A model generated the notes under the pieces. That model made no database searches. It was not told where the DNA came from and saw only the letters and a program-made list of their open reading frames with translations. Source: Trypanosoma brucei (Eukaryota). Taken from it: a stretch of 64,000 nt of DNA. The translations under genes were made by a program, and so were the position numbers. The stretch's first letter is position 1. Each line of letters begins with the position of its first letter. The stretch lies in assembly GCA_000002445.1 (NCBI GenBank), contig CH464491.1, forward strand, positions 4,032,001-4,096,000, written 5' to 3'. Positions 4,236-37,592 of the stretch are shown in pieces.

Positions 4236-4853
4236 CTACAACGACACAATGGTGACAGTATCTGAGAACCGCTTTAGCTCTTGATTGGAGTCGCTCTCCG
4301 GGGCATTAAAAACTGATTTCTGAAATACCACCGCCTGCTCATCGGCCCCAACAAGCTGCACTGCGTCACCCGCAATGCGTGCCGCCTCCCTCAGCACCTC
4401 TTCAAGCTTTTCTCCTGACTTCAGACCCAGGTAAACACTGAGGTCTTTGGTTTGAATGTGTCCAAGCGTACAGCCAATCACCGTTAGGATGGCGGCGCGC
4501 ATGTTTGGCTCGAAGCTTGGCCGCGCTGGGAGTGTACCTTCGGACTCTCGCCACACTTGCCAGAACTGAGGGAAGTTACCCGAACTGAGGTAATTCTCCA
4601 GATCGTAAATGAGGATTATATCCTTTTCAATATAAGAGGCGTCCTGCACGTGGCTGGAAATGAGAGAGATACAGGCGGAAAAGTCGCTGGTGTGGAAACG
4701 TGGAAGCGCCTGCAGCAAAATTCCCAGCAAAAGCTGTTTTTCCGGTTGACTGCCCGATACGACGTAGCTCTTAAGGAAACGGAGAAACAGTTGGAGATCA
4801 TACTTATCCTGCTGAAGCGCCTCACGCAGCTCCTTGTCCAAATCTTGGTTCAT
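4236..4853 (-). CDS. eIF3 subunit K-like protein (PCI/winged-helix family).
   Basis: 205 aa. The segments LLQALPRFHTSDFSACISLISS and DLENYLSSGNFPQFWQVW align by eye with human eIF3k LLKALTNLPHTDFTLCKCMIDQ and DLLETCHFQAFWQAL. Size and position match. Confidence 0.55.
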   Translation of the reverse strand: MNQDLDKELREALQQDKYDLQLFLRFLKSYVVSGSQPEKQLLLGILLQALPRFHTSDFSACISLISSHVQDASYIEKDIILIYDLENYLSSGNFPQFWQVWRESEGTLPARPSFEPNMRAAILTVIGCTLGHIQTKDLSVYLGLKSGEKLEEVLREAARIAGDAVQLVGADEQAVVFQKSVFNAPESDSNQELKRFSDTVTIVSL

Positions 4854-5977: not shown

Positions 5978-8902
5978 TCACATCTGGAACTCTGCGAGAA
6001 GTGGTGGTAATCCCTTGCGGAAGCGTGTTTTCAACGTGAAATCACGTGCTAGCTGGTACCCCCGCGCCGGTTGCAAGGGCCCAATGTGTACCGTTGTGTC
6101 AAACGGGTCCCCTGGAACTGTGTCCCAGCTGTCGAACGCGAAGAGTGGAAGTGCCTCGCCAAGCGTCACCACTCGCAGCTGTGTTTCCAGGCCGAAGCTG
6201 TCGATTGCCGGTACTAACGCCCGGACGCACACAAATGTAGTTGCTGCTATGGGTTCCTCCGATACAATACTCCCGCGACGCATTTGCAGTACCTCTGCAA
6301 TTTTTTCCACAGACCCTGGGGGGCACATAATGTCAACCTTTAGCACTGGCTCAAGAAGCTGCGGATGCGCACCGAGTAGCGCCTGTTTAGCTGCGGTTCT
6401 CGCACCAGCCATAATCGCCGCGTCTCTGGCATCAGGCTCCAGGTCTGCGAAAATGAGGCGCAGTGCCGCTCCGCGAACGACGTCGCCGATCAGCGGCCCC
6501 GCTGCCACTGCAGAGCGGAACCCAGCGGTAATGGCTTGCAACCGCTGCTCTGTGAGTCGTTCGAACTCCTCGTGCTCCTCGTCAAGCGTATCATTAATGA
6601 GCACACTCGGCCCTTTCGTTGTGTGTGGGCCTGTCGCTATTATGTTCCGCGCGTCAAGAGCGTCCATGTCGTGTTGCTGTAACGTCGTCCATAGCTTAAC
6701 AACACTGTCGGTACCGGGCGAAGGAAACAGATTGATTTGCTCATTTTCGATTTGTTCAGTCAGTTTGGTTGGGAGCGAGCCGGCCGTAAAACCAATATGT
6801 GCCCAGTTTGACGAAGTGACAGCTAAAGCACCATCCTTTTCTAACACAGTCTCCGAAAAGGAAACAAATGGCGGAGATATGCCAAGTTTCACCCCTTTGC
6901 ACAAGGCACACCGCAACTCGTGTAGAGCAGTGTCGAGGTGCAACTCCCCATAGCCACTAATGGTGAACTCCCCCGTTTCCTCTTTGTGCGCGTCTAGGCC
7001 AGGTGTTGTGCGAATCAATATTTGAAGACTTTGCTGTAACTGGTTTGCTTTTGCTGGATTTTTCAGTTCAACTCCAACATGCACAAATGGTTTTCCGCAC
7101 TTAAGGGGTAGTACTCTCACTTCATCGAGCCACGAAGCGCCAGACTCTCTGGCGGAGTCTATAGTGTTTTCCTCTTCCCATAACAAACTCGTGGCAGCGA
7201 CTCCGCCGACCATCACAAGGTGACTTCCTGCTCGTGTATCAAAGCCGGTGACGAGAACAACCTGGCCTGCGTACGCGCAATCCACATCGACAAATCCGTC
7301 CAACATTTTCAGCAACAACTCCTTTACCGTAAACGTATAAAAAGGCTCAGCATCACTGGAATGCTCATCCACCACAACCACCTTTACCCCACGTTTCAGT
7401 ACGCCGTGCAGTACACGAACAACGGCAAAGTTCTCCTCACCATTATTTTGAGATCGTATTATCGGTGCGATGGCTGCTGCTGAGTCTTCTTCCTCTACAT
7501 TCAGCCGGTACTGCGTCTTCAGCCACGCTGAGCGTTTGTCAGTTGCGGGCAATACGTTTAGAAGCGCATCAATACCCTCCAACGCGGGGTCACCGCAGAA
7601 AAGTTGCACTGCCTCGCGTACAGCACTGATGGGCCCTCGCGGCAGTGGATTAAGCTTATTGCTGAGTACCTGCGAGCCTTTTCCAGTAAGTGAATGAGCA
7701 ACAACCTTGTACAGAGGCTCAAGCACAAGTGTAACAAAGGAAGGTTTCTGGCGGAAGTTTGTAATGCGAACGAACCTTCCCTCCTCAAAAGTCACTTGCC
7801 CCCACAATTGCTGCGATAAAGCGATCGCATCCACGGATGGGTACTTGCTGCTGTACTTCAACGCAAACGTCTCCGTGGTGAAAAAACATCCGATGTTGGA
7901 GGAAGCGAAACAAACAGTGCCGTTCAGCGGCGACACCAAGAAGGGAGAGCATCCACTTCCAAAACTAGAAATTTCATTGTTTACCGCATCCACCACCATG
8001 CGCAACTTTCGATACGCATCGAGCGGAGGGAGCTTCAAATCCATTATAAGGCGATCAATTTTCGTTATAACAAGCACAATTGGTATTCCTTCCTGCAATA
8101 CAACCTGGCGCAGGAGCCGAGCGCCGTTACTTGTGAGCGACTCAGCGGCGTCAACGCAAAAAAGCACAGCGTCCGCTAGACGTAGCGCGGCTGCTGTTTC
8201 CGCCGCAAAATCGGGGTGACCGGGAGTGTCGACAAACGTCATTAGGTGTGAGGTCTGTTCATAATGTGCACCCGCGACAACCTCCGTCACGACGCTGCTC
8301 TTCACGGATATGCCTCGCTCAACCTCGTCCTCTCGCTGCCTGTAGGCACGACCGCCTAGAAGCAGTGACAAGAGTGAAGTTTTTCCGTGGTGCAAGTGCC
8401 CCGCAACCGCAACGATACGCTGTCGTGAAGGGACGCCTCGCAGGAGATCCAAGAAGTCCCGCGTCGACGGCTCTTTCGACACCACCTCCCCAATTAGAAG
8501 AGGATGTACCAGACGATCTTCCAACAAAAACTTTCCTCCGGCAGCATCCCTGCGATTTTTCATGGTTGATGATGCAACGTCACGACCAGCCACCAAAGGC
8601 TCATCGATTGACTGGTTGGCAACTTCTCCAATGACAAGCTCAACATCGTCGCCAAAGTCACCACTTGACCCACTCGTCGTGTCGTCGTCGTGCCTTCGCC
8701 GCTCGTGTTCTACAGAGTCGCTACCATCACTGCCTCTGTTACTTTCTGTACCGCTCCCGGCTGACCCTGAAGAATCGTTATCGTTGTCGTCGCTAGTAGA
8801 TCTCACTTCGTGGGTGCCGTCGTACTCCCTGCTGGTGCTGTCGCCACACCCACTTTGGTCACTGGGGACTCTGTTCCCCTCTTCATCATAACCAAAGTTC
8901 AT
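5978..8902 (-). CDS. EF-2-family GTPase, probable U5 snRNP 116-kDa protein (Snu114/EFTUD2 homologue).
   Basis: G1 motif AGHLHHGKTSL (the Snu114-type HLHHGKT), G3 DTPGHPDF and G4 ITKIDRL. EF-2-like domains follow. An acidic, Ser-rich N-terminal region precedes the G domain, as in Snu114. The start is set at the internal Met MNFGYDEEG (ATG at 8902) rather than the ORF-track extension to 9301. Confidence 0.7.
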   Translation of the reverse strand: MNFGYDEEGNRVPSDQSGCGDSTSREYDGTHEVRSTSDDNDNDSSGSAGSGTESNRGSDGSDSVEHERRRHDDDTTSGSSGDFGDDVELVIGEVANQSIDEPLVAGRDVASSTMKNRRDAAGGKFLLEDRLVHPLLIGEVVSKEPSTRDFLDLLRGVPSRQRIVAVAGHLHHGKTSLLSLLLGGRAYRQREDEVERGISVKSSVVTEVVAGAHYEQTSHLMTFVDTPGHPDFAAETAAALRLADAVLFCVDAAESLTSNGARLLRQVVLQEGIPIVLVITKIDRLIMDLKLPPLDAYRKLRMVVDAVNNEISSFGSGCSPFLVSPLNGTVCFASSNIGCFFTTETFALKYSSKYPSVDAIALSQQLWGQVTFEEGRFVRITNFRQKPSFVTLVLEPLYKVVAHSLTGKGSQVLSNKLNPLPRGPISAVREAVQLFCGDPALEGIDALLNVLPATDKRSAWLKTQYRLNVEEEDSAAAIAPIIRSQNNGEENFAVVRVLHGVLKRGVKVVVVDEHSSDAEPFYTFTVKELLLKMLDGFVDVDCAYAGQVVLVTGFDTRAGSHLVMVGGVAATSLLWEEENTIDSARESGASWLDEVRVLPLKCGKPFVHVGVELKNPAKANQLQQSLQILIRTTPGLDAHKEETGEFTISGYGELHLDTALHELRCALCKGVKLGISPPFVSFSETVLEKDGALAVTSSNWAHIGFTAGSLPTKLTEQIENEQINLFPSPGTDSVVKLWTTLQQHDMDALDARNIIATGPHTTKGPSVLINDTLDEEHEEFERLTEQRLQAITAGFRSAVAAGPLIGDVVRGAALRLIFADLEPDARDAAIMAGARTAAKQALLGAHPQLLEPVLKVDIMCPPGSVEKIAEVLQMRRGSIVSEEPIAATTFVCVRALVPAIDSFGLETQLRVVTLGEALPLFAFDSWDTVPGDPFDTTVHIGPLQPARGYQLARDFTLKTRFRKGLPPLLAEFQM

Positions 8903-9290
8903 ATTAGAATCAGACGCGCACTCCGGTCGGAAGAGCAATTCCCAACCGACAGTGGGACCGTTATTGTTACTCTTTTTCTTCCACTGGCGGCAGAAACATA
9001 GCAGGCGGGTAGAAACAAGATTGGGGGAGACACAAGAGCAGAATGTATGCGAGGGGAAAACTCCATGGTGAAGGTTCCACGTGCCAGAATTTGCATGCAC
9101 CACGGGCGCAGGATGAAGAGTAGCGGTTAACTCAGTGCCCGCACAGAGGGAAGAAATTTTTGCACCGACACACCCATCCCAACGCCATTCATTAATGACA
9201 AAGAACAAGCCCAGGACTCGCCCCCTGCTAGCAAGCGTGCAACTTAGTGCACCGCAGGGAAAAGGGTCGATAAAAAAGGGAGAACCCCTT

Positions 9291-9911
9291 TCAACCCTCA
9301 TTAGAAACTATGCCATAGGGATTACGCAGGGATGGCGGTTCCAGCCTCACGCCTGGAGCATCGTGGAACGTGGCGAGAACACGGTGCTCCAGCGACAACC
9401 GGTGTTGCTGTCGTTCGAGCCCAGTGCGAATCTGCCTTTCACGTATTTGCCGCAGCTCCTCTGGGGAATTCGCCTCCAAACGCATAGCCATCGCACCCAC
9501 CATTTCGCTTATGTCTGGGTGACGCACCTCAATGGGTTTTGCATTCATCGCTACCACCGCTATGAGCATAAAGCCCAACATGAGAAAAGCAGCAATGAAG
9601 TTTTGTGATTCTGGGGTGAAATTGTACTCCGTGCGGCGTACTTCCCAGTCAAGACACGAGACGAGGCCCAAACGGTTGATGTATAACGTACGCGAGAGCC
9701 GCTCGTCCTCCAAAACCTGCAGGTCTTTGTGGGCCTGATTGATGAGCTCACGCTGTGCCGACGGGCTTGTGATGCCGCGGTTCCTTCTAAAACCCGAGCG
9801 GATTTGCTGCAGGAGCAGCATCCGGATGGTCACATTTGGGATGCTGTTGGCTGCCTTCAGGTAGCGGCGGTAGAGGAGCGCTACCGCCTCCCTTGGAAGA
9901 AGGGCTGACAT
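9291..9911 (-). CDS. LYR-motif (Complex1_LYR-like) protein with a C-terminal transmembrane segment.
   Basis: N-terminal ALLYRRYLKAANSIPN...IRSGFRRN fits the L-x-x-LY-R/K LYR signature. Hydrophobic stretch FIAAFLMLGFMLIAVVAMN. 206 aa. Confidence 0.45.
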   Translation of the reverse strand: MSALLPREAVALLYRRYLKAANSIPNVTIRMLLLQQIRSGFRRNRGITSPSAQRELINQAHKDLQVLEDERLSRTLYINRLGLVSCLDWEVRRTEYNFTPESQNFIAAFLMLGFMLIAVVAMNAKPIEVRHPDISEMVGAMAMRLEANSPEELRQIRERQIRTGLERQQHRLSLEHRVLATFHDAPGVRLEPPSLRNPYGIVSNEG

Positions 9912-10413: not shown

Positions 10414-13400
10414 TTATCCTATGAATTTAAGTCTCAACTCGCGCCGTTGCTTCTTCTTGAACGGCCCTTGCCGTCCTTCCGCAGCAGCTTCTACAGTGGT
10501 ACCTTCTTCAACGGGGCCAAATTTAGCCCCGCAACCGCTGGGTGTCACGCCAAATGGATTAGTATAGCCATCAAACTTTTCGTCGCTGCGACCATTCACT
10601 GTTGCGTTATCGCGGGACTTAATCGGTGTGGAAACATCTTCCCCATCTCTACTGGATAATAAAAACGGTAGCTGCGGTAAAGTTGCAGCGTCCAACGTAA
10701 CTGGAGGCCTGACTTCTTGCTGTTTACGATATTTACTAAGAAGTACCGAAGAAGCAATGCCAGCCCCACCATCTACTGAACAGGATGAGCTCAATGGAGT
10801 ATCAGCAGTGGCTGTAAGCTTCTGACCGATACCACAAAGCGTCTTCCTTGAGTCGTTCACAAGGAGGAAACACGCCTCAAAAATGGGAGCGTCACAAACG
10901 TTAAGGGGTAACGACCTCAGCAAGCAGTACTGAAGTTTCTGCAAAGCTACAGTTAACTTTGCAACAGTGAAACCCGTCAGTTTCCCCCAAGCATCGAAGC
11001 GTTGGGAATACCACGAGCAAAGAGACGCCACTACCAAGATATTGTGGCGTAGCGCTTCAACGACCTCAACCAGCCGCCTGCTCTCTTCATCCCATACAGC
11101 TGTAAATGAAATCGCTCTTTGAAGTCCAACACCAACAACATCGCAAAGAGCCTTCAAGGGTCCAAAGGAAAACGGCAACTCGGGCGCAGAGCATTTAGAT
11201 TTCGACGTCACGGGAGAATAAAATTTATCATCAACAGATAATTTCGCACCTGGAACAATACCTAACTTTTTTGTAACATTCTGGATAAACAACATACGCT
11301 GCTGAGAAAGCACAACAGCATCCGATACGTCAAATTCAAACGAACGCAACTTGTCAAGCACGTTACGAACACCAACACGCAGTTGCTTCGCAACAGAACC
11401 ACGACGAAAAGACGACACAGCAGGGCAACCAACCAAAGAGAAAACGCCACGATCAGAACAAGAAAACTGACTAAAAACAGTATTCACCAACTGTTCTTCA
11501 TCCGAACAAAAGGATATTTTCATATCATCCACAAATAAACGACGAGACATATCAACAACATCAACATCAACTTCGCAACAGTACTGTTCCTTCCCTATAT
11601 CCACCAAACGCGTTACGCACATTTCAGACGCCTGTACACGTTCACGCTCATTTTGTAATTCAGTACGAAGTGATTCCACCTCATGGGTGTATCGAACACG
11701 CTGTTCCTCCATAGCTATCTCAAGAGTTGAAAGTTGTTCCCGATGCAATTTCTCCATACCTTCATGGTTCTCTTGTACAACTTTCTCAGACGCCTGTACA
11801 CGTTCACGCTCATTTTGTAATTCAGTACGAAGTGATTCCACCTCATGGGTGTATCGAACACGCTGTTCCTCCATAGCTATCTCAAGAGTTAAAAGTTGTT
11901 CCCGATGCAATTTCTCCATACCTTCATGGTTCTCTTGTACAACTTTCTCAGACGCCTGTACACGTTCACGCTCATTTTGTAATTCAGTACGAAGTGATTC
12001 CACCTCATGGGTGTATCGAACACGCTGTTCCTCCATAGCTATTTCAAGAGCTAAAAGTTGTTCCCGATGCAATTTCTCCATACCTTCATGGTTCTCTTGT
12101 GCAACTTTCTCAGACGCCTGTACACGTTCACGCTCATTTTGTAATTCAGTACGAAGTGATTCCACCTCATGGGTGTATCGAACACGCTGTTCCTCCATAG
12201 CTATTTCAAGAGTTGAAAGTTGTTCCCGATGCAATTTCTCCATACCTTCATGGTTCTCTTGTGCAACTTTCTCAGACGCCTGTACACGTTCACGCTCATT
12301 TTGTAATTCAGTACGAAGTGATTCCACCTCATGGGTGTATCGAACACGCTGTTCCTCCATAGCTATTTCAAGAGTTGAAAGTTGTTCCCGATGCAATTTC
12401 TCCATACCTTCATGGTTCTCTTGTGCAACTTTCTCAGACGCCTGTACACGTTCACGCTCATTTTGTAATTCAGTACGAAGTGATTCCACCTCATGGGTGT
12501 ATCGAACACGCTGTTCCTCCATAGCTATTTCAAGAGCTAAAAGTTGTTCCCGATGCAATTTCTCCATACCTTCATGGTTCTCTTGTGCAACTTTCTCAGA
12601 CGCCTGTACACGTTCACGCTCATTTTGTAATTCAGTACGAAGTGATTCCACCTCATGGGTGTATCGAACACGCTGTTCCTCCATAGCTATTTCAAGAGCT
12701 AAAAGTTGTTCCCGATGCAATTTCTCCATACCTTCATGGTTCTCTTGTGCAACTTTCTCAGACGCCTGTACACGTTCACGCTCATTTTGTAATTCAGTAC
12801 GAAGTGATTCCACCTCATGGGTGTATCGAACACGCTGTTCCTCCATAGCTATTTCAAGAGTTGAAAGTTGTTCCCGATGCAATTTCTCCATACCTTCATG
12901 GTTCTCTTGTGCAACTTTCTCAGACGCCTGTACACGTTCACGCTCATTTTGTAATTCAGTACGAAGTGATTCCACCTCATGGGTGTATCGAACACGCTGT
13001 TCCTCCATGGCTATTTCAAGAGCTAAAAGTTGTTCCCGATGCAATTTCTCCATACCTTCATGGTTCTCTTGTGCAACTTTCTCAGACGCCTGTACACGTT
13101 CACGCTCATTTTGTAATTCAGTACGAAGTGATTCCACCTCATGGGTGTATCGAACACGCTGTTCCTCCATAGCTATTTCAAGAGTTGAAAGTTGTTCCCG
13201 ATGCAATTTCTCCATACCTTCATGGTTCTCTTGTGCAACTTTCTCAGACGCCTGTACACGTTCACGCTCATTTTGTAATTCAGTACGAAGTGATTCCACC
13301 TCATGGGTGTATCGAACACGCTGTTCCTCCATAGCTATTTCAAGAGCTAAAAGTTGTTCCCGATGCAATTTCTCCATACCTTCATGGTTCTCTTGTGCAA

Positions 13401-16400
13401 CTTTCTCAGACGCCTGTACACGTTCACGCTCATTTTGTAATTCAGTACGAAGTGATTCCACCTCATGGGTGTATCGAACACGCTGTTCCTCCATAGCTAT
13501 TTCAAGAGCTAAAAGTTGTTCCCGATGCAATTTCTCCATACCTTCATGGTTCTCTTGTGCAACTTTCTCAGACGCCTGTACACGTTCACGCTCATTTTGT
13601 AATTCAGTACGAAGTGATTCCACCTCATGGGTGTATCGAACACGCTGTTCCTCCATAGCTATTTCAAGAGCTAAAAGTTGTTCCCGATGCAATTTCTCCA
13701 TACCTTCATGGTTCTCTTGTGCAACTTTCTCAGACGCCTGTACACGTTCACGCTCATTTTGTAATTCAGTACGAAGTGATTCCACCTCATGGGTGTATCG
13801 AACACGCTGTTCCTCCATAGCTATTTCAAGAGTTGAAAGTTGTTCCCGATGCAATTTCTCCATACCTTCATGGTTCTCTTGTGCAACTTTCTCAGACGCC
13901 TGTACACGTTCACGCTCATTTTGTAATTCAGTACGAAGTGATTCCACCTCATGGGTGTATCGAACACGCTGTTCCTCCATAGCTATTTCAAGAGCTAAAA
14001 GTTGTTCCCGATGCAATTTCTCCATACCTTCATGGTTCTCTTGTGCAACTTTCTCAGACGCCTGTACACGTTCACGCTCATTTTGTAATTCAGTACGAAG
14101 TGATTCCACCTCATGGGTGTATCGAACACGCTGTTCCTCCATAGCTATTTCAAGAGTTGAAAGTTGTTCCCGATGCAATTTCTCCATACCTTCATGGTTC
14201 TCTTGTGCAACTTTCTCAGACGCCTGTACACGTTCACGCTCATTTTGTAATTCAGTACGAAGTGATTCCACCTCATGGGTGTATCGAACACGCTGTTCCT
14301 CCATAGCTATTTCAAGAGCTAAAAGTTGTTCCCGATGCAATTTCTCCATACCTTCATGGTTCTCTTGTGCAACTTTCTCAGACGCCTGTACACGTTCACG
14401 CTCATTTTGTAATTCAGTACGAAGTGATTCCACCTCATGGGTGTATCGAACACGCTGTTCCTCCATAGCTATTTCAAGAGTTGAAAGTTGTTCCCGATGC
14501 AATTTCTCCATACCTTCATGGTTCTCTTGTGCAACTTTCTCAGACGCCTGTACACGTTCACGCTCATTTTGTAATTCAGTACGAAGTGATTCCACCTCAT
14601 GGGTGTATCGAACACGCTGTTCCTCCATAGCTATTTCAAGAGCTAAAAGTTGTTCCCGATGCAATTTCTCCATACCTTCATGGTTCTCTTGTGCAACTTT
14701 CTCAGACGCCTGTACACGTTCACGCTCATTTTGTAATTCAGTACGAAGTGATTCCACCTCATGGGTGTATCGAACACGCTGTTCCTCCATAGCTATTTCA
14801 AGAGCTAAAAGTTGTTCCCGATGCAATTTCTCCATACCTTCATGGTTCTCTTGTACAACTTTCTCAGACGCCTGTACACGTTCACGCTCATTTTGTAATT
14901 CAGTACGAAGTGATTCCACCTCATGGGTGTATCGAACACGCTGTTCCTCCATAGCTATTTCAAGAGCTAAAAGTTGTTCCCGATGCAATTTCTCCATACC
15001 TTCATGGTTCTCTTGTGCAACTTTCTCAGACGCCTGTACACGTTCACGCTCATTTTGTAATTCAGTACGAAGTGATTCCACCTCATGGGTGTATCGAACA
15101 CGCTGTTCCTCCATAGCTATTTCAAGAGCTAAAAGTTGTTCCCGATGCAATTTCTCCATACCTTCATGGTTCTCTTGTGCAACTTTCTCAGACGCCTGTA
15201 CACGTTCACGCTCATTTTGTAATTCAGTACGAAGTGATTCCACCTCATGGGTGTATCGAACACGCTGTTCCTCCATAGCTATTTCAAGAGCTAAAAGTTG
15301 TTCCCGATGCAATTTCTCCATACCTTCATGGTTCTCTTGTGCAACTTTCTCAGACGCCTGTACACGTTCACGCTCATTTTGTAATTCAGTACGAAGTGAT
15401 TCCACCTCATGGGTGTATCGAACACGCTGTTCCTCCATAGCTATTTCAAGAGCTAAAAGTTGTTCCCGATGCAATTTCTCCATACCTTCATGGTTCTCTT
15501 GTGCAACTTTCTCAGACGCCTGTACACGTTCACGCTCATTTTGTAATTCAGTACGAAGTGATTCCACCTCATGGGTGTATCGAACACGCTGTTCCTCCAT
15601 AGCTATTTCAAGAGCTAAAAGTTGTTCCCGATGCAATTTCTCCATACCTTCATGGTTCTCTTGTGCAACTTTCTCAGACGCCTGTACACGTTCACGCTCA
15701 TTTTGTAATTCAGTACGAAGTGATTCCACCTCATGGGTGTATCGAACACGCTGTTCCTCCATAGCTATTTCAAGAGTTGAAAGTTGTTCCCGATGCAATT
15801 TCTCCATACCTTCATGGTTCTCTTGTGCAACTTTCTCAGACGCCTGTACACGTTCACGCTCATTTTGTAATTCAGTACGAAGTGATTCCACCTCATGGGT
15901 GTATCGAACACGCTGTTCCTCCATAGCTATTTCAAGAGCTAAAAGTTGTTCCCGATGCAATTTCTCCATACCTTCATGGTTCTCTTGTGCAACTTTCTCA
16001 GACGCCTGTACACGTTCACGCTCATTTTGTAATTCAGTACGAAGTGATTCCACCTCATGGGTGTATCGAACACGCTGTTCCTCCATAGCTATTTCAAGAG
16101 CTAAAAGTTGTTCCCGATGCAATTTCTCCATACCTTCATGGTTCTCTTGTGCAACTTTCTCAGACGCCTGTACACGTTCACGCTCATTTTGTAATTCAGT
16201 ACGAAGTGATTCCACCTCATGGGTGTATCGAACACGCTGTTCCTCCATAGCTATTTCAAGAGTTGAAAGTTTTTCTTTATATTTTTTTTGTTCATTTTGT
16301 TTTTTCGTATTTAAGTTTTCAATGTGTTTATGGTGTTGCTGCTCTTTTGCCTTAATGATGTTTGAAAGTTCCTGTTCCCTTTCGCACTGTGCCGCTAATG

Positions 16401-17295
16401 TTAGTTTCATTGCTATTATTTGTTCTTGGTGGCTTGTTTGAATATCTGCGAGAGTTAGAGTGCCTTGTTTGACTTCTGCGGCTTCCGTATTTTGTATCAT
16501 GTCTCTTAGTGTTTGATGCAGTATCTTTATGTTTTCTCGTAAAGCTGCCTGTTCTTCTTTGTCTATATTATTTTCTTTTATTTTTATTTCTCGTAAACGT
16601 CGTTCGTACTCTTCTTTGGTTTTTGTCATTTCTATTTCCTTTTCTTGTAGTGTGAGTTGAGATTGTTGTAGCTGTGTTGTGGATCGTTGAAGTTTCCTTT
16701 CATGTTCGTGTAGTGCTGCCTTTAATGCACTATTTTCCTGTTGTATTCTTTCGTGTTCATTTTGCAGGATTGCCGTTAGTTGTGAATTTTCTTCATAGTT
16801 TTGAAGCTTTTGTCGGACGCTTTCTAGTTCCTTTACCGTGCTATCGCGCTCACACTTCGTTTTGTGGAATTCTTCTCGCAAGTGTTCAAGGTTAACATCT
16901 GTGTCTTTATAAGTAGTAAAACCCTGCTGCATTGTGTGCGGAGAAAGCGTGTGATCCATTGCGTCTGTCTCGCTAGGTGCTGAGCTGCCAGCGGTGCTCT
17001 CTGGAGCAAGTCCCTCTCGGCGCTTGTAATAATAAATTATGGTACGCCACAGCTTAGCGATGCGGTTTGCCGTTGCAGCTGCTTTGGGTGAGCCGTTAGG
17101 TAACGAAAGGTACGCTGTCAGTGATGTCAGCGCCATGTAAATATCGGCCATGGCTTCTGGTAAGTCATGCGCAGCGCTGCTTGTGAGTTTGTACTGTGCA
17201 TCCCTAAGCGAATTTCCAATTCGCGCTTCTATAGTCCTTCGACTGCCTTCGATATCGCTCGTGTTTTCTATTAACTGAGCGTCCTTGAAACTCAT
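10414..17295 (-). CDS. Giant charged repeat protein (2293 aa) with about 28.6 tandem 54-aa repeats; coiled-coil/cytoskeletal-type repetitive antigen candidate.
   Basis: Unique N-terminal domain (about 345 aa). Then repeats of LEIAMEEQRVRYTHEVESLRTELQNERERVQASEKVAQENHEGMEKLHREQLLA. Then a unique 404-aa C-terminal domain. Single uninterrupted minus-strand ORF. Confidence 0.8.
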   Translation of the reverse strand: MSFKDAQLIENTSDIEGSRRTIEARIGNSLRDAQYKLTSSAAHDLPEAMADIYMALTSLTAYLSLPNGSPKAAATANRIAKLWRTIIYYYKRREGLAPESTAGSSAPSETDAMDHTLSPHTMQQGFTTYKDTDVNLEHLREEFHKTKCERDSTVKELESVRQKLQNYEENSQLTAILQNEHERIQQENSALKAALHEHERKLQRSTTQLQQSQLTLQEKEIEMTKTKEEYERRLREIKIKENNIDKEEQAALRENIKILHQTLRDMIQNTEAAEVKQGTLTLADIQTSHQEQIIAMKLTLAAQCEREQELSNIIKAKEQQHHKHIENLNTKKQNEQKKYKEKLSTLEIAMEEQRVRYTHEVESLRTELQNERERVQASEKVAQENHEGMEKLHREQLLALEIAMEEQRVRYTHEVESLRTELQNERERVQASEKVAQENHEGMEKLHREQLLALEIAMEEQRVRYTHEVESLRTELQNERERVQASEKVAQENHEGMEKLHREQLSTLEIAMEEQRVRYTHEVESLRTELQNERERVQASEKVAQENHEGMEKLHREQLLALEIAMEEQRVRYTHEVESLRTELQNERERVQASEKVAQENHEGMEKLHREQLLALEIAMEEQRVRYTHEVESLRTELQNERERVQASEKVAQENHEGMEKLHREQLLALEIAMEEQRVRYTHEVESLRTELQNERERVQASEKVAQENHEGMEKLHREQLLALEIAMEEQRVRYTHEVESLRTELQNERERVQASEKVAQENHEGMEKLHREQLLALEIAMEEQRVRYTHEVESLRTELQNERERVQASEKVVQENHEGMEKLHREQLLALEIAMEEQRVRYTHEVESLRTELQNERERVQASEKVAQENHEGMEKLHREQLLALEIAMEEQRVRYTHEVESLRTELQNERERVQASEKVAQENHEGMEKLHREQLSTLEIAMEEQRVRYTHEVESLRTELQNERERVQASEKVAQENHEGMEKLHREQLLALEIAMEEQRVRYTHEVESLRTELQNERERVQASEKVAQENHEGMEKLHREQLSTLEIAMEEQRVRYTHEVESLRTELQNERERVQASEKVAQENHEGMEKLHREQLLALEIAMEEQRVRYTHEVESLRTELQNERERVQASEKVAQENHEGMEKLHREQLSTLEIAMEEQRVRYTHEVESLRTELQNERERVQASEKVAQENHEGMEKLHREQLLALEIAMEEQRVRYTHEVESLRTELQNERERVQASEKVAQENHEGMEKLHREQLLALEIAMEEQRVRYTHEVESLRTELQNERERVQASEKVAQENHEGMEKLHREQLLALEIAMEEQRVRYTHEVESLRTELQNERERVQASEKVAQENHEGMEKLHREQLSTLEIAMEEQRVRYTHEVESLRTELQNERERVQASEKVAQENHEGMEKLHREQLLALEIAMEEQRVRYTHEVESLRTELQNERERVQASEKVAQENHEGMEKLHREQLSTLEIAMEEQRVRYTHEVESLRTELQNERERVQASEKVAQENHEGMEKLHREQLLALEIAMEEQRVRYTHEVESLRTELQNERERVQASEKVAQENHEGMEKLHREQLLALEIAMEEQRVRYTHEVESLRTELQNERERVQASEKVAQENHEGMEKLHREQLSTLEIAMEEQRVRYTHEVESLRTELQNERERVQASEKVAQENHEGMEKLHREQLSTLEIAMEEQRVRYTHEVESLRTELQNERERVQASEKVAQENHEGMEKLHREQLLALEIAMEEQRVRYTHEVESLRTELQNERERVQASEKVVQENHEGMEKLHREQLLTLEIAMEEQRVRYTHEVESLRTELQNERERVQASEKVVQENHEGMEKLHREQLSTLEIAMEEQRVRYTHEVESLRTELQNERERVQASEMCVTRLVDIGKEQYCCEVDVDVVDMSRRLFVDDMKISFCSDEEQLVNTVFSQFSCSDRGVFSLVGCPAVSSFRRGSVAKQLRVGVRNVLDKLRSFEFDVSDAVVLSQQRMLFIQNVTKKLGIVPGAKLSVDDKFYSPVTSKSKCSAPELPFSFGPLKALCDVVGVGLQRAISFTAVWDEESRRLVEVVEALRHNILVVASLCSWYSQRFDAWGKLTGFTVAKLTVALQKLQYCLLRSLPLNVCDAPIFEACFLLVNDSRKTLCGIGQKLTATADTPLSSSCSVDGGAGIASSVLLSKYRKQQEVRPPVTLDAATLPQLPFLLSSRDGEDVSTPIKSRDNATVNGRSDEKFDGYTNPFGVTPSGCGAKFGPVEEGTTVEAAAEGRQGPFKKKQRRELRLKFIG
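11625..16260. repeat. 162-bp tandem repeat array, about 28.6 near-identical copies (coding, inside the 2293-aa gene).
   Basis: Period measured directly: the motif gtatcgaacacg ends at 11700 and again at 11862, 162 bp apart. Units differ at only 2 to 3 positions (agttgaaag/agctaaaag, ttgtgcaac/ttgtacaac, ccatagctat/ccatggctat). Confidence 0.9.
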
Positions 17296-20667: not shown

Positions 20668-22665
20668 TCAACAGGATGCCAGGTTGCTCCGACACGCAGT
20701 TACCGTAGCGTTTGCGTTAGAAGCGCTACGGCCACCGATATCCCTTGAAGAGCACTTGCCCTTATCATTTGCCTGGACCACGAAGAGGCGCGGATACAGT
20801 ACTCCAGTTTTCATGGCCATTCCTTTCCGCAATAACCCTGCTGACTGCTTGCGTGACCCCTCCAACACAACAGCATTCCATAGGAACCAACCTACACGAC
20901 ACTTGACAGCACATATGTCCTCCGCCGACTTGGGGAAGTAAGCGCTGCCTGCCTCAATAAAGCTTTCCGTGGTGGGGGCGTTTGAGCCACAGTCGCCACA
21001 GTCATGCAAGTTCCGAAAATGCGTGACAGTCCCCTGCTCCAATCGCTGAAGCTCCCATTGGACAGCGCTGGGGGTGCCTTGAGGGTAAACAGCATCCGTG
21101 AAGGTACACCTAACGAGAAGACGGTGGCGGAAATGGTCATGAGACCCAGCATCCTCGGCATCGTCTACTTTTTCTGACGGTTTGCTGCTGGCCACTGTGA
21201 TGTCTTTTCGCTGAACTGCGTTACCTCCCTCGTCCGTCCCACCGCCGCCATGCCCATCTCTCTGCTGTTCCTTCGGAAGTCCCTCATTGCACCTTTCTCC
21301 GCTGAGTTGATCACCGCGGTGCCACACCGTTTGTTTCTCTAGTTCGCATACCGTACGGGACAACAGCCGTTTTATTAGTTGTCCTCGCACGGGGGTCGCA
21401 CCCTTGTCTAACGTGGCGTTGATGGTTGGACTGAAGTACTCACCCCCAACAAACGCTCTCCAGATTCCGTAGGCCTCGTCCGCGGTGACTTTGTGCCAGT
21501 AAATAACGGCTGATTCTCTTTTCAGAAGAGGCGCATGCCACGGATCTTTTGTGAAGTGGAGGTCGTGCCCTTGCTTCCACGCCGCATTCCACAATGCATT
21601 GAATGTCCGTGGCCAATCACAGTAGCCACTGGCTACTGCTGGGCCGAGATGAAGACATCCTGGAGGTGAGCTGAGTGCAGGCGCAACAGGGACCTTACCA
21701 AATAGGCACTCGCAGAGCGCTTCCGCGCCCTGCTCAGTCACGCTGGGAAAGTACTCTCGGATGGTCATCTCCGGTGGTATTGGTATAGTTCGCTGAAGCA
21801 ACACATCTCCGCCATCCATAAACATCCCTCTCGGTGGAAGTTTGATAACGCTAACACCACCCTTGTCGTCCCCCCGAAGCAGCGGAGCAAAGATAGGACT
21901 TGCGCCACGATACCGCGGCAACAAAGAGGGATGCAAATTGACGGTGAATCTCAATTTCTCAAGTAGTTTGTTCGGCAGGAAGTACCGAAACGACACCACG
22001 ACTGCTACATCAAACATCTCCAGGGGTCGCCCCGCGATGTGATCGACTTGCGCCACACCGCTAATGACAGGCGTTGGCAAATGCTTGGGATGCAGCAGGT
22101 ATTCCAGTGTTTTACTTTTCGCCATAGACGTCGGGTGGTCAACAGGCACTAAGGGTATGCCGTGCTCTACACAGTATCGCGCCACGGGGTATTGACGCCT
22201 GTACTGTTTGAACACTGTGAAAGGATCGGCAGGAAGGAAGGGACAAACAACCACAAGTTGGGATTTCTCGCTACCGGTTGCCGCGCTGCACCCTTTTTCC
22301 TGAAGGGGACGAGCATCCATGATTAGCTGAAGGCGGTTGTGAAGAGCCTTCAAAGCTACTAGCGAGACAATATCACCACCGAAGAAAATGATGGAAGGGG
22401 GTTTGGACATTCCGCAAACAGTAAAAGCACAGTTCGGCGTACCCCTCGTTTTATCGCCATTGCCGGTGATCGTGACCTGCTCGACACATCCCACCATAGT
22501 GGAGGGGGCGGGTGGATCGGTGGTGCTGCTTCTCGATCGACGATTTACCAGAAAGGAAGAAATGTGGCTCCAGAAACAAGCTCTTGCCACACTATGTCCA
22601 CACCTCGATATGCACTGCCGCATGCGTGAAGGCACTGATCCGACGCCTGTTGCCGCCTTCCACAC
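20668..22665 (-). CDS. Methionyl-tRNA formyltransferase, enlarged kinetoplastid-type (probably mitochondrial).
   Basis: Formyltransferase core IIFFGGDIVSLVALKAL and NLHPSLLPRYRGASPIFAPLLRGD (bacterial Fmt has NVHASLLPRWRGAAPI). 665 aa against about 310 to 390 aa elsewhere. The exact start is uncertain. Confidence 0.7.
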   Translation of the reverse strand: MWKAATGVGSVPSRMRQCISRCGHSVARACFWSHISSFLVNRRSRSSTTDPPAPSTMVGCVEQVTITGNGDKTRGTPNCAFTVCGMSKPPSIIFFGGDIVSLVALKALHNRLQLIMDARPLQEKGCSAATGSEKSQLVVVCPFLPADPFTVFKQYRRQYPVARYCVEHGIPLVPVDHPTSMAKSKTLEYLLHPKHLPTPVISGVAQVDHIAGRPLEMFDVAVVVSFRYFLPNKLLEKLRFTVNLHPSLLPRYRGASPIFAPLLRGDDKGGVSVIKLPPRGMFMDGGDVLLQRTIPIPPEMTIREYFPSVTEQGAEALCECLFGKVPVAPALSSPPGCLHLGPAVASGYCDWPRTFNALWNAAWKQGHDLHFTKDPWHAPLLKRESAVIYWHKVTADEAYGIWRAFVGGEYFSPTINATLDKGATPVRGQLIKRLLSRTVCELEKQTVWHRGDQLSGERCNEGLPKEQQRDGHGGGGTDEGGNAVQRKDITVASSKPSEKVDDAEDAGSHDHFRHRLLVRCTFTDAVYPQGTPSAVQWELQRLEQGTVTHFRNLHDCGDCGSNAPTTESFIEAGSAYFPKSAEDICAVKCRVGWFLWNAVVLEGSRKQSAGLLRKGMAMKTGVLYPRLFVVQANDKGKCSSRDIGGRSASNANATVTACRSNLASC

Positions 22666-23235: not shown

Positions 23236-23865
23236 TTAAGCTTTTTCTTCGGCAGCACCGTCCCCCTCGTCCGCTTTGCCCTCGTTTTCTTCATCGGAAT
23301 CGTCTGCATCGGACAACTTGCCATCCTTCTTAGCCAACTCCCACCACGATGTCTCTTCAGCCTTTGCCAGTCGGATCACAATCTGCCCACTCGGGTCCTT
23401 GACTTTGTAGCTGCTTTCTTTGCTCTTTATTGCCTTTGCCAAACAAAGAACAAGTTGTTTCCTTCGCTGCGTTGCGACATCCTTCGAGGTCTGCACATTC
23501 GCAATGTACGACACTGTCAAACGGCGTTTTCCGAATTCCACCTGTAGCGTGTCTTCCACCATTGTTTCTTTTTCATCCAGTTTTGTGTCAATGTATACCG
23601 TAACATTCTTCTTACCGTCACACCAGCTGTGCTTCGTGATCGGATAACTTGCTGTGGAAGCTGGCAACACCGATGGGTCGGACTTCTTCAGCAAAACAGG
23701 TTTCGGCATAGGCGCAACATCGCCTACCTTCGCTCGTTCTTTCTCGTGGTTATGCCAGTAATAATAGGAGTTAGCTTGCTTCTTCTTAGCTGCGGAGTCG
23801 TGCTGCTCATTTTGGGTAGGTGGAATGGCTTCAGTGCCAGCCACTGCCTCCGTATCGGCCATCAC
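23236..23865 (-). CDS. CS-domain (p23/HSP20-like fold) co-chaperone-like protein, CacyBP/SIP- or Sgt1-like.
   Basis: 209 aa. ITKHSWCDGKKNVTVYIDT resembles the CS-domain start (YGWDQ...V.I.I). Acidic C-terminal tail SDADDSDEENEGKADEGD. Confidence 0.45.
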   Translation of the reverse strand: MMADTEAVAGTEAIPPTQNEQHDSAAKKKQANSYYYWHNHEKERAKVGDVAPMPKPVLLKKSDPSVLPASTASYPITKHSWCDGKKNVTVYIDTKLDEKETMVEDTLQVEFGKRRLTVSYIANVQTSKDVATQRRKQLVLCLAKAIKSKESSYKVKDPSGQIVIRLAKAEETSWWELAKKDGKLSDADDSDEENEGKADEGDGAAEEKA

Positions 23866-34483: not shown

Positions 34484-34793
34484 TTGATGCTAATCCTTGC
34501 GTTACTTTTTCTGCAACGAATAACAAACAATATGGGGAGAAATGTATTTTTTTTCTTTTAAATGTCCAGTTTGATACTCTGTCAGTGTGTTCCTACGTAG
34601 TACAGTCGTTTTCCTTTTAAATAAACGGGCTCGGTACCTATGACTAAGTCAAAATAGTGGGGTGATTAAGCGGTACGGAATATTACAAACCTTAGCGAGG
34701 AACAAACCCATTCGTGGGATTATACCAGCGCATCCATCACTTTTCCTTCCGTCCTTTTGGGTGGATAAAGCAGACAAGGAGATGCTCCTCTCA

Positions 34794-35273
34794 CTACTCA
34801 TGGGAAACATCGGTGTCCGAAACGACTAACATAAGTCCTACCACCACAAGAAGCGCTCCCGCCAACCACGTGATTGTCACCACTTCATGAAACACAAAAA
34901 AACCGAGGATGGCGCTCACCCCAAAGTTGGCTCCGGTGTTAACAACTTGACAAACGGGTGTAGGTCCGCAAGACAGCGCCCTCACATACCACCTCCACAT
35001 CTGTGCAGTGCAGTAGCCATTCGCCGCCAGTGATACGGCGCGGAGCCCAAGAACCAACGCAGCAGCCAACGAATTACTCCTGGCGTCGATACCTACCAAC
35101 GCAAAAAAAAAACTCACAACTCCAGAAAGAGACGTGGCACTGCCGCTGTTATCGTGCGCAAACGCAAGCTTTCCAACAACTGCCGAGAGGGCACCGAACG
35201 TACCTGCTAGCAGGGAATACAACAAATACTGGCGCCCGCCCACAGTCCCCTCTTTCCTACTCTGCTTTGACAT
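34794..35273 (-). CDS. Small multi-pass membrane protein (159 aa; 4 predicted TM segments, TMEM42/EamA-half-like).
   Basis: Hydrophobic segments LLYSLLAGTFGALSAVVGKLAF, VVSFFFALVGI, AAALVLGLRAVSLAANGY and AILGFFVFHEVVTITWLAGALLVVVGLMLVV. Confidence 0.45.
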   Translation of the reverse strand: MSKQSRKEGTVGGRQYLLYSLLAGTFGALSAVVGKLAFAHDNSGSATSLSGVVSFFFALVGIDARSNSLAAALVLGLRAVSLAANGYCTAQMWRWYVRALSCGPTPVCQVVNTGANFGVSAILGFFVFHEVVTITWLAGALLVVVGLMLVVSDTDVSHE

Positions 35274-37567: not shown

Positions 37568-37592
37568 TTTTTCGGTTGTACTTATTTTCGCG

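What the first reader, a model, noticed from the sequence alone, without database searches (positions are those of the whole stretch)
10414..17295. Giant protein whose 4.6-kb core is about 28.6 almost identical 162-bp (54-aa) tandem repeats
The repeat units are nearly identical at the nucleotide level, with only 2 to 3 variable sites per 162 bp. These give LLAL/LSTL and VAQ/VVQ variants. This points to recent expansion or ongoing concerted evolution, for example by unequal crossing-over or gene conversion. It differs from the EEEARLRA array in the same transcription unit, which varies only at synonymous sites. Highly charged 54-aa repeats with unique flanking domains are typical of kinetoplastid cytoskeleton- or flagellum-associated repetitive antigens. 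Copy number here is very likely strain-variable and may be collapsed or mis-estimated in a short-read assembly. The 1584-aa plus-strand ORF (11687..16441) is a shadow of this array and should not be annotated.
Basis: seen in the sequence. Interest (0 to 1): 0.6.

Follow-up and report, generated by a model that had tools for sequence, protein, structure and literature searches.

The report
Known trypanosome basal-body repeat protein TbBBP270
This is the already named but functionally unstudied Trypanosoma brucei basal-body protein TbBBP270 (Tb927.11.15450), whose long helical middle consists of 28.6 almost identical 54-amino-acid repeats that have been kept uniform within each trypanosome species by ongoing recombination.

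Summary
A 6,882-nt minus-strand ORF (10414..17295, 2,293 aa) holds 28 full units and one partial 162-bp unit (11624..16275). Seventeen units are identical and only 5 sites vary.

The window is T. brucei brucei TREU927 chromosome 11, and the gene is Tb927.11.15450, or TbBBP270. Dang et al. 2017 found it by TbCEP57 BioID, gave its mass as 269.6 kDa, and placed it at the distal ends of the mature and pro-basal body. TrypTag data show it enriched at the new flagellum's basal body.

- The syntenic T. cruzi orthologue, from a PacBio assembly, has 18.1 units of the same 54-aa period, register and 3' truncation point. T. rangeli has the same unit length.
- Units are about 99% identical within a species and 51-54% identical between species. 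This is concerted evolution of an ancient array, not a recent expansion.
- T. b. gambiense DAL972 has 14.7 units with a different dominant variant. Three other assemblies (T. equiperdum, T. rangeli and one Logan contig) end inside the array.

The plus-strand ORF is a shadow. The repeats are predicted to form one continuous alpha-helix. A spacer or tether role, like that of p197, is inferred and not shown. There is no evidence that the protein is an antigen. The gene is known, so interest is low to moderate.

The parts
10414..17295 (-). Complete CDS of Tb927.11.15450 / TbBBP270 (2,293 aa, 269.6 kDa, pI 5.3), including the stop codon at 10414..10416
   Evidence: ORF list and translation. Computed mass is 269,649 Da, matching the 269.6 kDa listed for TbBBP270 in Dang et al. 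2017 Table S1. The position between the LYR gene Tb927.11.15440 and the Fmt-like gene Tb927.11.15470 fits.
17017..17295 (-). N-terminal conserved three-helix bundle (aa 1-93), with the motif RIGxSxRDAQYxLT...YLxLPNGxPKAAAxAxRIAK
   Evidence: AF2 model gives helices 3-38, 42-63 and 71-93 with pLDDT 75-92. It is 48% identical to T. cruzi over the first 100 columns. Foldseek returns only generic three-helix bundles such as MIT, Habc and GAT, none with E<=1e-3.
16897..17010 (-). Predicted disordered linker (aa 96-133)
   Evidence: pLDDT is about 30 with no secondary structure. Alignment to T. cruzi is poor here.
16261..16890 (-). Unique alpha-helical region (aa 136-345) leading into the array. Its last ~20 aa are a decayed partial repeat unit.
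   Evidence: AF2 predicts helices 136-273 and 282 onward. The N-terminal domain as a whole is 36.6% identical to T. cruzi by BLASTP, E 1e-50. In alignment A4, Tb 'ENLNTKKQNE...QKKYKEKLST' lines up with the T. cruzi partial unit.
11725..16260 (-). 28 full 162-bp / 54-aa tandem units with consensus LEIAMEEQRVRYTHEVESLRTELQNERERVQASEKVAQENHEGMEKLHREQLLA. TRF places the array at 11624..16275.
   Evidence: Mean pairwise unit identity is 99.2% and the minimum is 97.5%. The units are predicted as one unbroken alpha-helix with pLDDT 85-89.
11623..11724 (-). Truncated 29th unit (34 aa, ending ...ERERVQASE). The T. cruzi array ends at the same point within the unit (...ERQRAEE), as does the T. rangeli array (...ERRRAEEAE).
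10417..11622 (-). Unique C-terminal domain (402 aa, pI 8.6, Cys- and Val-rich, not repetitive)
   Evidence: No Pfam family. It is 99% identical to the T. equiperdum fragment TEOVI_000498000. The AF2 model is unusable, with pLDDT 33.5.
10786..11343 (-). Conserved core of the C-terminal domain (C-domain aa 94-279), including the motif AKxxVALxKxQxCLLxSxxLxxxDAxIxEACxLLxND (about 10852..10962)
   Evidence: Exhaustive HMMER hits to T. cruzi (E 8e-6, query 94-279) and T. rangeli (E 6e-7, query 158-270). Alignment A3.
11687..16441 (+). Antisense shadow ORF (1,584 aa). Not a gene.
   Evidence: One antisense frame of the 162-bp unit has no stop codon, so it stays open for the length of the array. With 54 codons per unit, an open alternative frame is expected in roughly 7% of frames. 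Apart from antisense overlaps of minus-strand ORFs, every ORF of 200 aa or more in the window is on the minus strand. N- and C-terminal tags on the minus-strand product both give basal-body signal.

Best explanation
The locus is the Trypanosoma brucei brucei TREU927 chromosome 11 gene Tb927.11.15450. It encodes TbBBP270, a 270-kDa trypanosome-specific structural protein of the flagellar basal body.

Architecture: a conserved N-terminal three-helix bundle, a disordered linker, and then about 1,750 residues of essentially continuous alpha-helix. About 1,546 of those residues are 28.6 near-identical 54-aa repeats. A conserved non-repetitive C-terminal domain of 402 aa follows.

Shown here:
- The array is ancient. 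The syntenic T. cruzi orthologue shares its period, register and 3' truncation point, and T. rangeli shares its period and 3' truncation point.
- It is homogenised within each lineage by unequal crossing-over or gene conversion, that is, concerted evolution.
- This turnover also changes copy number and the dominant variant between T. b. brucei and T. b. gambiense.

Shown by others: the protein sits at the distal (flagellar) ends of the mature and pro-basal body, close to TbCEP57, and is brighter at the new flagellum's basal body.

Inferred, not shown: the two conserved ends are docking modules, and the repeat helix is an extended rod or tether. Fully extended, it would be up to about 230 nm in T. 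brucei and about 145 nm in T. cruzi. This would be analogous to the repeat spacer of the basal-body/TAC protein p197.
For: Organism and locus:
- Seven neighbouring ORFs match T. b. brucei TREU927 proteins exactly (EAN80495-80509), on a 5.26-Mb contig.
- Gene IDs are anchored by Pfam domains plus the literature: eIF3k-like = 15420, LYR = 15440, Fmt-like = 15470, CS-domain = 15480.
- The computed mass of 269,649 Da matches the 269.6 kDa listed for TbBBP270 = Tb927.11.15450. [quoted passage not shown]
- 3D-SIM shows two foci on top of the microtubule arrays.

New-flagellum bias (TrypTag Table S1):
- N-terminal tag: anterior 2796 against posterior 7653, log2 -1.37, p 3e-13.
- C-terminal tag: 4024 against 6143, p 0.0013. 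Posterior corresponds to the new flagellum.

Array.

Orthology:
- Exhaustive HMMER with the C-terminal domain finds T. cruzi PWV05998.1 (1,744 aa).
- Its locus has the same gene order: Fmt, DEAD helicase, repeat protein, LYR, EF-G-like GTPase, eIF3k.
- The T. cruzi array is 162 bp x 18.1 copies at 99% identity.

Concerted evolution:
- Mean within-species unit identity is 99.2% in both species. Between-species identity is 51-54% at the nucleotide level and 22/54 at the amino-acid level.
- Register and 3' boundary are the same. T. cruzi shows an 8-unit higher-order pattern repeated twice.
- The T. rangeli unit is also 54 aa, and 20 positions are invariant across the three species.

Turnover: DAL972 has 14.7 units and no N gaps. 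Twelve of its 14 units are the LST type, against about 10 of 28 in TREU927, and it has a private M5I variant.

Helix: the AF2 model is a continuous helix through three units with pLDDT 85-89.

Precedent: p197 has about 26 near-identical 175-aa repeats that act as an alpha-helical spacer anchored at the basal body.
Against: - No functional data exist for TbBBP270. Dang et al. did not choose it for RNAi, so the spacer or tether role is an analogy.
- By light microscopy the protein appears as compact foci, not as a 200-nm fibre. This neither requires nor excludes an extended rod.
- Heptad periodicity of the unit is not significantly above shuffled controls. Fourier p is 0.36-0.44 and local a/d occupancy p is 0.04-0.07. 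Dimeric coiled coil versus single helix is therefore unresolved.
- Rod length is not conserved: 28.6, 14.7 and 18.1 units in the three assemblies. This argues against a strictly tuned ruler.
- The copy numbers come from Sanger-era assemblies, and the TREU927 reference is known to collapse p197 from about 26 repeats to 3.5.
- The flanking domains differ between TREU927 and DAL972 mostly at nonsynonymous sites, 17 aa changes among 22 nt differences. This suggests weak constraint.
Confidence: 0.6

Rival explanations
1. The near-identity and the copy number are assembly artefacts. Under this view the true locus has a few diverged copies, or a very different number of units, and the reference shows a consensus stamped out many times.
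For: The TREU927 reference is known to mis-assemble this type of array: p197 has 3.5 repeats in the reference against about 26 in reality. Three other assemblies end inside the array: T. equiperdum OVI 39 nt into it, Logan contig L006 at the same place, and T. rangeli AM80. TREU927 and DAL972 differ by exactly 14 units, and this could be partly technical.
Against: The array carries an aperiodic pattern of real variants, which a stamped consensus would not produce. DAL972 was assembled independently and shows the same unit with different variant frequencies and a private variant. The PacBio T. cruzi TCC assembly shows the same architecture, 18.1 units at 99% identity. The published mass used for TbBBP270 is that of the full model.
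Confidence: 0.1
2. The array is a recent, T. brucei-specific expansion of a short motif, not an old array kept uniform.
For: Units are 97.5-100% identical. p197 is a precedent, because its repeats are absent from other kinetoplastids.
Against: The syntenic T. cruzi orthologue and the T. rangeli orthologue have arrays with the same 54-aa period and end at the same position within the unit; the T. cruzi units also share the register. The units themselves are only 39-41% identical in amino acids to the T. brucei unit. Independent expansions would not be expected to share period, phase and boundary.
Confidence: 0.04
3. The main biological significance of the repeats is immunological. TbBBP270 would be an immunodominant tandem-repeat B-cell antigen, like T. 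cruzi FRA and MAP or T. brucei GM6 and MARP.
For: It has the general profile of kinetoplastid tandem-repeat antigens: large, charged, intracellular and cytoskeletal, with near-identical repeats. The comparison itself rests on my own knowledge of that class.
Against: No searchable paper contains any of seven 12-mer peptides from the T. brucei or T. cruzi units. A basal-body protein present as two foci per cell is a low-abundance antigen. Twenty unit positions are conserved across three species, which points to a structural constraint.
Confidence: 0.1
4. The repeat helix is tolerated filler. Only the conserved ends and some alpha-helical linker matter, and array length drifts neutrally through replication or recombination slippage with no functional tuning.
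For: Copy number differs two-fold between subspecies and 1.6-fold from T. cruzi. Differences between TREU927 and DAL972 in the flanks are mostly nonsynonymous. For p197, any alpha-helical segment could link the two ends, although length mattered for function.
Against: The unit is 41% identical in amino acids between T. brucei and T. cruzi, at least as conserved as the N-terminal domain (36.6%) and the C-terminal domain (30.6%). The 54-aa period has been kept exactly in three species. The reading frame is intact over 4.6 kb.
Confidence: 0.3
5. The 1,584-aa plus-strand ORF (11687..16441) is a real gene.
For: It is long and uninterrupted.
Against: It lies almost entirely inside the array, and it exists only because one antisense frame of the unit lacks stop codons. 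It has a GTG 'start' under the bacterial ORF rule. Every other ORF of 200 aa or more that does not overlap a minus-strand ORF is itself on the minus strand, consistent with one polycistronic unit. Tagged products of the minus-strand ORF are expressed and localise specifically.
Confidence: 0.02

Closest known systems
TbBBP270 (Tb927.11.15450), Dang et al. 2017 mBio, PMC5210500
   Same: It is the same gene. Chromosomal position and predicted mass (269.6 kDa) both match. The published data are: found by TbCEP57 BioID, '31 x CC', located at the distal ends of the pro-basal and mature basal bodies, and seen as two foci on top of the microtubule arrays by 3D-SIM.
   Different: The paper does not describe the repeat architecture, its conservation or its copy-number variation, and it reports no functional test. 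Those points are added here.
p197 (Tb927.10.15750), exclusion-zone filament protein of the tripartite attachment complex
   Same: It is also a T. brucei basal-body-anchored giant protein with unique terminal docking domains. Its central alpha-helical region consists of about 26 nearly identical tandem repeats. The array is a known assembly problem.
   Different: - Its unit is 175 aa, not 54 aa.
- Its repeats are T. brucei-specific and absent from the T. cruzi orthologue, whereas the BBP270 array is shared with T. cruzi and T. rangeli.
- It attaches at the proximal (kinetoplast) side of the basal body, whereas BBP270 is at the distal side.
- Its spacer function has been shown experimentally; that of BBP270 has not.
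- Sequence homology between the two was not tested.
MARP2 / TbBBP268 (Tb927.10.10280)
   Same: It is a repetitive protein of similar mass that is detected at the basal body.
   Different: It is a different gene on chromosome 10. I first suspected identity because of the mass and rejected the idea.
Tb-291 (EARLRAEE-repeat membrane-associated protein), 7 kb upstream in the same window
   Same: It has an in-frame, highly homogenised tandem array and lies in the same polycistron.
   Different: Its unit is 8 aa (24 bp x 35.9) and its variation is purely synonymous. It is an unrelated protein annotated as membrane-associated.
Kinetoplastid tandem-repeat antigens (T. cruzi FRA and MAP, T. brucei GM6 and MARP). 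From my own knowledge, not tested here.
   Same: They are large cytoskeletal proteins with near-identical charged repeats.
   Different: No evidence of antigenicity was found for this protein.

Membership tests
TbBBP270 / Tb927.11.15450 (gene identity) | Chromosomal position: T. brucei TREU927 chromosome 11, between Tb927.11.15440 (LYR) and Tb927.11.15460/15470 (DEAD helicase, Fmt-like) | tested here: met
   Neighbouring ORFs match TREU927 proteins exactly. Pfam domains of the neighbours agree with the literature use of IDs 15420, 15440, 15470 and 15480.
TbBBP270 / Tb927.11.15450 (gene identity) | Predicted mass of 269.6 kDa, as published | tested here: met
   The computed mass of the 2,293-aa ORF is 269,649 Da. 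Table S1 of PMC5210500 gives 269.6.
TbBBP270 / Tb927.11.15450 (gene identity) | Residue-by-residue identity to the database protein record | not testable with these tools
Trypanosome cytoskeletal proteins with near-identical tandem-repeat rods (p197-like architecture) | Many in-frame, nearly identical tandem units forming a central alpha-helical region | tested here: met
   There are 28.6 units with mean identity 99.2%. AF2 predicts a continuous helix with pLDDT 85-89.
Trypanosome cytoskeletal proteins with near-identical tandem-repeat rods (p197-like architecture) | Unique terminal domains conserved in orthologues | tested here: met
   N-terminal domain: 36.6% identity to T. cruzi, E 1e-50. 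C-terminal core: 30.6% identity, E 5e-15. Alignments.
Trypanosome cytoskeletal proteins with near-identical tandem-repeat rods (p197-like architecture) | Basal-body or cytoskeletal localisation | not testable with these tools
Trypanosome cytoskeletal proteins with near-identical tandem-repeat rods (p197-like architecture) | Array length sets a physical distance (spacer function) | not testable with these tools
   It needs U-ExM of doubly tagged length variants, as was done for p197.
Canonical heptad coiled coil | Significant 3.5-residue hydrophobic periodicity or a/d occupancy | tested here: inconclusive
   The Fourier power at harmonics 13-17 is not above shuffled controls, p 0.36-0.44. Local a/d occupancy is 0.60-0.62 against 0.53-0.55 in shuffles, p 0.04-0.07, in all three species. 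Dang et al. list '31 x CC' from a predictor.
Kinetoplastid immunodominant tandem-repeat antigens | Recognition by sera of infected hosts | not testable with these tools
   No paper in the library contains the repeat peptides. This is absence of evidence only.
Any Pfam domain family | A score above the gathering threshold in the N-terminal domain, the unit or the C-terminal domain | tested here: not met
   Every hit is below its cut-off. The best are Tup_N at 14.9 bits against 28.7, and Phasin_2 at 17.4 against 24.9. The C-terminal domain has no hit. A PDB profile search of the C-terminal domain finds nothing better than E 0.2.
MARP2 / TbBBP268 | Gene Tb927.10.10280 | tested here: not met
   BBP268 is on chromosome 10. 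This window is from chromosome 11.

The most novel reading that the evidence does not exclude
TbBBP270's repeat helix is a length-setting tether at the distal end of the assembling (new or pro-) basal body. On this reading, the exact 54-residue period has been preserved by selection since before the T. brucei / T. cruzi split. Fifty-four residues correspond to 15 turns of an ideal alpha-helix and were found in all three species examined. The period would be kept because it matches a structural periodicity of a partner lattice, while concerted evolution turns over the sequence and copy number. Copy-number differences (28.6, 14.7 and 18.1) would then change basal-body or transition-zone geometry between lineages.
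Probability: 0.15. Interest if true: 0.5.

Novelty: already known. Interest (0 to 1): 0.3.

Why it matters
The gene is annotated, named and localised, so the finding does not reveal a new element.

What this analysis adds is a clean example of concerted evolution. A 54-aa array has kept its period, phase and boundary across T. brucei, T. cruzi and T. rangeli, while it is homogenised to about 99% within each genome. Its assembled copy number halves between T. brucei subspecies.

In practice, BBP270 should be flagged as a locus where reference copy numbers and predicted masses are unreliable, and where short-read assemblies yield truncated gene models. Examples are TEOVI_000498000 and TraAM80_06781.

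If the repeat rod is a spacer at the distal end of the new basal body, it would be a second tractable case, after p197, of repeat number setting a cellular distance in trypanosomes.

Tried and rejected
1. The search for homologous proteins with the N-terminal domain, one unit and the C-terminal domain found no hit. The run was capped at 8,000 word-sharing candidates, and coiled-coil words probably swamped it.
2. The same tool with an alignment of the N-terminal 100 aa found no hit and did not even recover T. cruzi P0033, which was in the alignment. Negatives from that tool are therefore uninformative here, and presence in Leishmania, T. congolense and T. vivax remains untested.
3. I suspected BBP268 because of its similar mass. 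It is MARP2, on chromosome 10.
4. Exact-product look-ups of the DEAD helicase and of Tb-291 found nothing on record.
6. The AF2 model of the C-terminal domain had pLDDT 33.5, so I did not use it for a fold search.
7. A Foldseek search of the N-terminal model against the PDB gave no hit with E<=1e-3, only generic three-helix bundles. MIT-like 2w2u had TMt 0.76 but E 0.4.
8. The supplements of the TrypTag 2023 paper and of the transition-fibre paper did not contain the gene ID in the stored text.
9. Peptide-string searches of the literature returned nothing.
10. Fourier and salt-bridge tests could not separate coiled coil from single alpha-helix.
11. Rfam and tRNA scans of the whole window found nothing.
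Full report
**Observation**

Tandem Repeats Finder reports one array at 11624..16275 with period 162, 28.7 copies, 99% matches, no indels and score 9108. It lies inside a 2,293-codon minus-strand ORF, 10414..17295, that has no internal stop.

I sliced the ORF in the register that starts LEIAMEEQ. This gives 28 full 54-aa units (16260 down to 11725) and a 34-aa truncated 29th unit (11724..11623).
- Seventeen units are identical at the nucleotide level.
- Only five unit positions vary.
- Positions 6 and 12 are synonymous singletons in unit 21 and in units 28 and 29.
- Position 110 gives Ala/Val. Positions 158 and 160 give LLA/LST.

The contrast with the EEEARLRA array also holds: it has 35 perfect 8-aa copies with two synonymous variable sites.

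**Organism and gene**

Seven neighbouring ORFs are exact matches to Trypanosoma brucei brucei TREU927 proteins EAN80495-EAN80509, on a 5.26-Mb contig. They include Tb-291, C-14 sterol reductase and the NUDIX protein MERS1. Apart from antisense overlaps, every long ORF is on the minus strand, as expected for one polycistronic unit.

Pfam domains of the neighbours match how the literature uses the systematic IDs:

| Window ORF | Domain | Gene ID |
|---|---|---|
| 4236..4853 | eIF3k-like | Tb927.11.15420 |
| 9291..9911 | LYR | Tb927.11.15440 |
| 20668..22665 | formyltransferase-like | Tb927.11.15470 |
| 23236..23865 | CS domain | Tb927.11.15480 |

This leaves Tb927.11.15450 for the giant ORF and 15460 for the DEAD-box helicase.

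Dang et al. 2017 confirm the assignment. [quoted passage not shown] The mass I computed from the ORF is 269,649 Da. [quoted passage not shown] It was not chosen for RNAi, and it is the only paper in the searchable library that names it.

A 2026 TrypTag preprint uses Tb927.11.15450 as its example of a basal-body protein specific to the new flagellum. Its Table S1 gives these values for dividing cells:
- N-terminal tag: 2796 (anterior) against 7653 (posterior), log2 -1.37, p 3e-13.
- C-terminal tag: 4024 against 6143, p 0.0013.

[quoted passage not shown] Signal from tags at both ends also supports translation of the whole minus-strand ORF.

**Anatomy**

- No Pfam family reaches its threshold in the N-terminal domain, the unit or the C-terminal domain.
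- An AF2 model of residues 1-507, aligned with T. cruzi, has mean pLDDT 78. It predicts a three-helix bundle (3-93), a disordered linker (96-133), a helix at 136-273, and a second helix from 282 that runs unbroken through all three modelled repeat units with pLDDT 85-89.
- Foldseek against the PDB gives nothing with E<=1e-3, only generic three-helix bundles.
- The C-terminal 402 aa are basic, rich in Cys and Val, and non-repetitive. Their AF2 model is unusable, with pLDDT 33.5, and a PDB profile search finds nothing.
- The unit is 39% charged with net charge -5.
- Its hydrophobic periodicity is not significantly above shuffled controls. Local a/d occupancy is only marginally raised, p 0.04-0.07, in three species.

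I therefore call the array an alpha-helical rod and leave open whether it is a coiled coil or a single helix. Fully extended, the array would span about 230 nm.

**Orthologues and concerted evolution**

An exhaustive HMMER search with the C-terminal domain found only three proteins:
- a 402-aa T. equiperdum fragment, 99% identical;
- a 394-aa T. rangeli fragment, E 6e-7;
- T. cruzi TCC PWV05998.1, 1,744 aa, E 8e-6.

The T. cruzi locus comes from a PacBio assembly and has the same gene order as the window: Fmt, DEAD helicase, repeat protein, LYR, EF-G-like GTPase, eIF3k. Its protein has the same plan:
- The N-terminal domain is 36.6% identical, E 1e-50, and the C-terminal core is 30.6% identical.
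- Its array is 162 bp x 18.1 copies at 99% identity.

Mean within-species unit identity is 99.2% in both species, with a minimum of 97.5%. Between species, units in the same register are only 51-54% identical in nucleotides and 22/54 in amino acids. Both arrays end at the same point within the unit, after ...ER.R.....

The T. rangeli contig starts inside an array of 54-aa units that ends at the same point. Twenty unit positions are invariant across the three species: LE.A.E.QR.....EV..LR..L..ER.R....E..A.......E..H.EQL...

The array is therefore ancient, and its uniformity within each genome is concerted evolution. It is not a recent expansion. Three details fit this:
- T. cruzi has an 8-unit higher-order pattern repeated twice, which points to multi-unit unequal exchange.
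- In T. brucei the most divergent units are at the 3' edge.
- The 5' edge holds a decayed partial unit.

The unit is at least as conserved between species as the flanking domains. This argues that it is under structural constraint.

**Copy number and assembly**

The T. b. gambiense DAL972 orthologue is 1,537 aa, with 14.7 units and no N gaps.
- It differs from TREU927 by exactly 14 units.
- It is dominated by the LST variant, 12 of 14 units, against roughly 10 of 28 in TREU927.
- It carries a private M5I variant.

Three other contigs end inside the array. The T. equiperdum OVI contig ends 39 nt into it, a Logan contig ends at the same place, and the T. rangeli AM80 contig also ends in it. This explains the truncated gene models.

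For p197, the TREU927 reference shows 3.5 repeats against about 26 in reality. The absolute numbers here should therefore be treated as assembly values that still need long-read confirmation.

**Shadow ORF**

One antisense frame of the T. brucei unit has no stop codon. This is enough to create the 1,584-aa plus-strand ORF. In the GC-rich T. cruzi unit, five of the six frames are open. Nothing else supports that ORF.

**Mechanism**

*Shown here:* gene identity, architecture, conservation, homogenisation and turnover.

*Shown by others:* basal-body localisation, proximity to CEP57 and the bias towards the new flagellum.

*Inferred:* the conserved ends dock the protein, and the repeat helix acts as an extended rod or tether at the distal end of the (pro-)basal body. 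This follows the example of p197, whose near-identical repeat helix sets the distance between the basal body and the mitochondrial outer membrane.

*Against a strictly tuned ruler:* unit number varies among lineages, and most of the differences between the subspecies in the flanking domains are nonsynonymous, 17 aa changes among 22 nt differences.

*Antigenicity:* this remains untested. No paper contains the repeat peptides.

**Verdict**

This is a correct observation of an already annotated, named and localised gene. The analysis adds evidence for concerted evolution of an ancient array, for differences in assembled copy number, and for truncated gene models in other assemblies. Interest is low to moderate.

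Noticed in passing
window 24137..26293 (-), array 24461..25321: This is Tb-291 (EAN80495). It has 35 perfect EEEARLRA units, and its 24-bp units differ only at two synonymous sites, giving four nucleotide types. The T. b. equiperdum homologue is 734 aa against 718 aa, a difference of two 8-aa units, so this array also varies in copy number. Pfam gives a spurious DUF2345 hit on the repeat.
   Followed up: partly
L001 11009..13944 (T. cruzi TCC PRFC01000121.1): The T. cruzi BBP270 array has a clean 8-unit (1,296-bp) higher-order pattern of variant sites: 67, none, 115, 67, none, 92, 115, none. The pattern occurs twice, which implies a recent duplication of an 8-unit block.
   Followed up: partly
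L003 1..1585 (T. rangeli AM80 MKGL01000259.1); L002 1..1248 (T. equiperdum OVI): The annotated genes TraAM80_06781 (394 aa), the adjacent 119-aa model and TEOVI_000498000 (402 aa) are truncated pieces of the BBP270 orthologue at contig ends. The T. rangeli contig also has a frameshift inside the repeat.
   Followed up: yes
window 10417..11622 and 16261..17295 compared with L004 (T. b. gambiense DAL972): The non-repeat flanks of BBP270 differ between TREU927 and DAL972 at 22 nucleotides, which give 17 amino-acid changes. Substitution is close to neutral or faster, so the protein is evolving quickly. No formal dN/dS test was done.
   Followed up: partly
window 5978..9301 (-) and 9291..9911 (-): The longest ORF of the EF-G-like GTPase (1,107 aa from its first ATG) overlaps the 3' end of the LYR gene by 11 nt. 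The DAL972 and T. equiperdum models are 974 aa and the T. cruzi model is 960 aa. The true start is therefore probably a downstream ATG, and the overlap comes from the longest-ORF rule.
   Followed up: partly
window 46196..46372, within ORF 46115..47815 (-): A diverged 78-bp x 2.3 repeat (73% matches) and an 18-bp repeat lie in a CT-rich stretch, which would encode an acidic Glu/Asp-rich segment on the minus strand.
   Followed up: no
window 34484..37592: This is the longest stretch without an ORF of 200 aa or more. It overlaps the lowest G+C in the window (0.416 at 36-38 kb). It has no Rfam or tRNA hit. The offset between gene IDs and protein accessions suggests that one gene without a protein accession lies somewhere between Fmt and MERS1. 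The MERS1 gene ID used for that comparison is from memory.
   Followed up: partly
bioRxiv 10.64898/2026.02.17.706163, section 8: The preprint contradicts itself. One sentence says 'anterior (new) or posterior (old)', while its introduction and the Figure 3 legend say the posterior kinetoplast belongs to the new flagellum. Table S1 (15450 brighter at the posterior, 6800 brighter at the anterior) agrees with the legend and with the 'old and new ... respectively' reading.
   Followed up: yes
tool behaviour: The word-indexed protein search did not return the T. cruzi orthologue, even when the query alignment contained its own N-terminus. The exhaustive HMMER search found it. The TREU927 and DAL972 full-length proteins appear to be missing from that collection.
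   Followed up: yes
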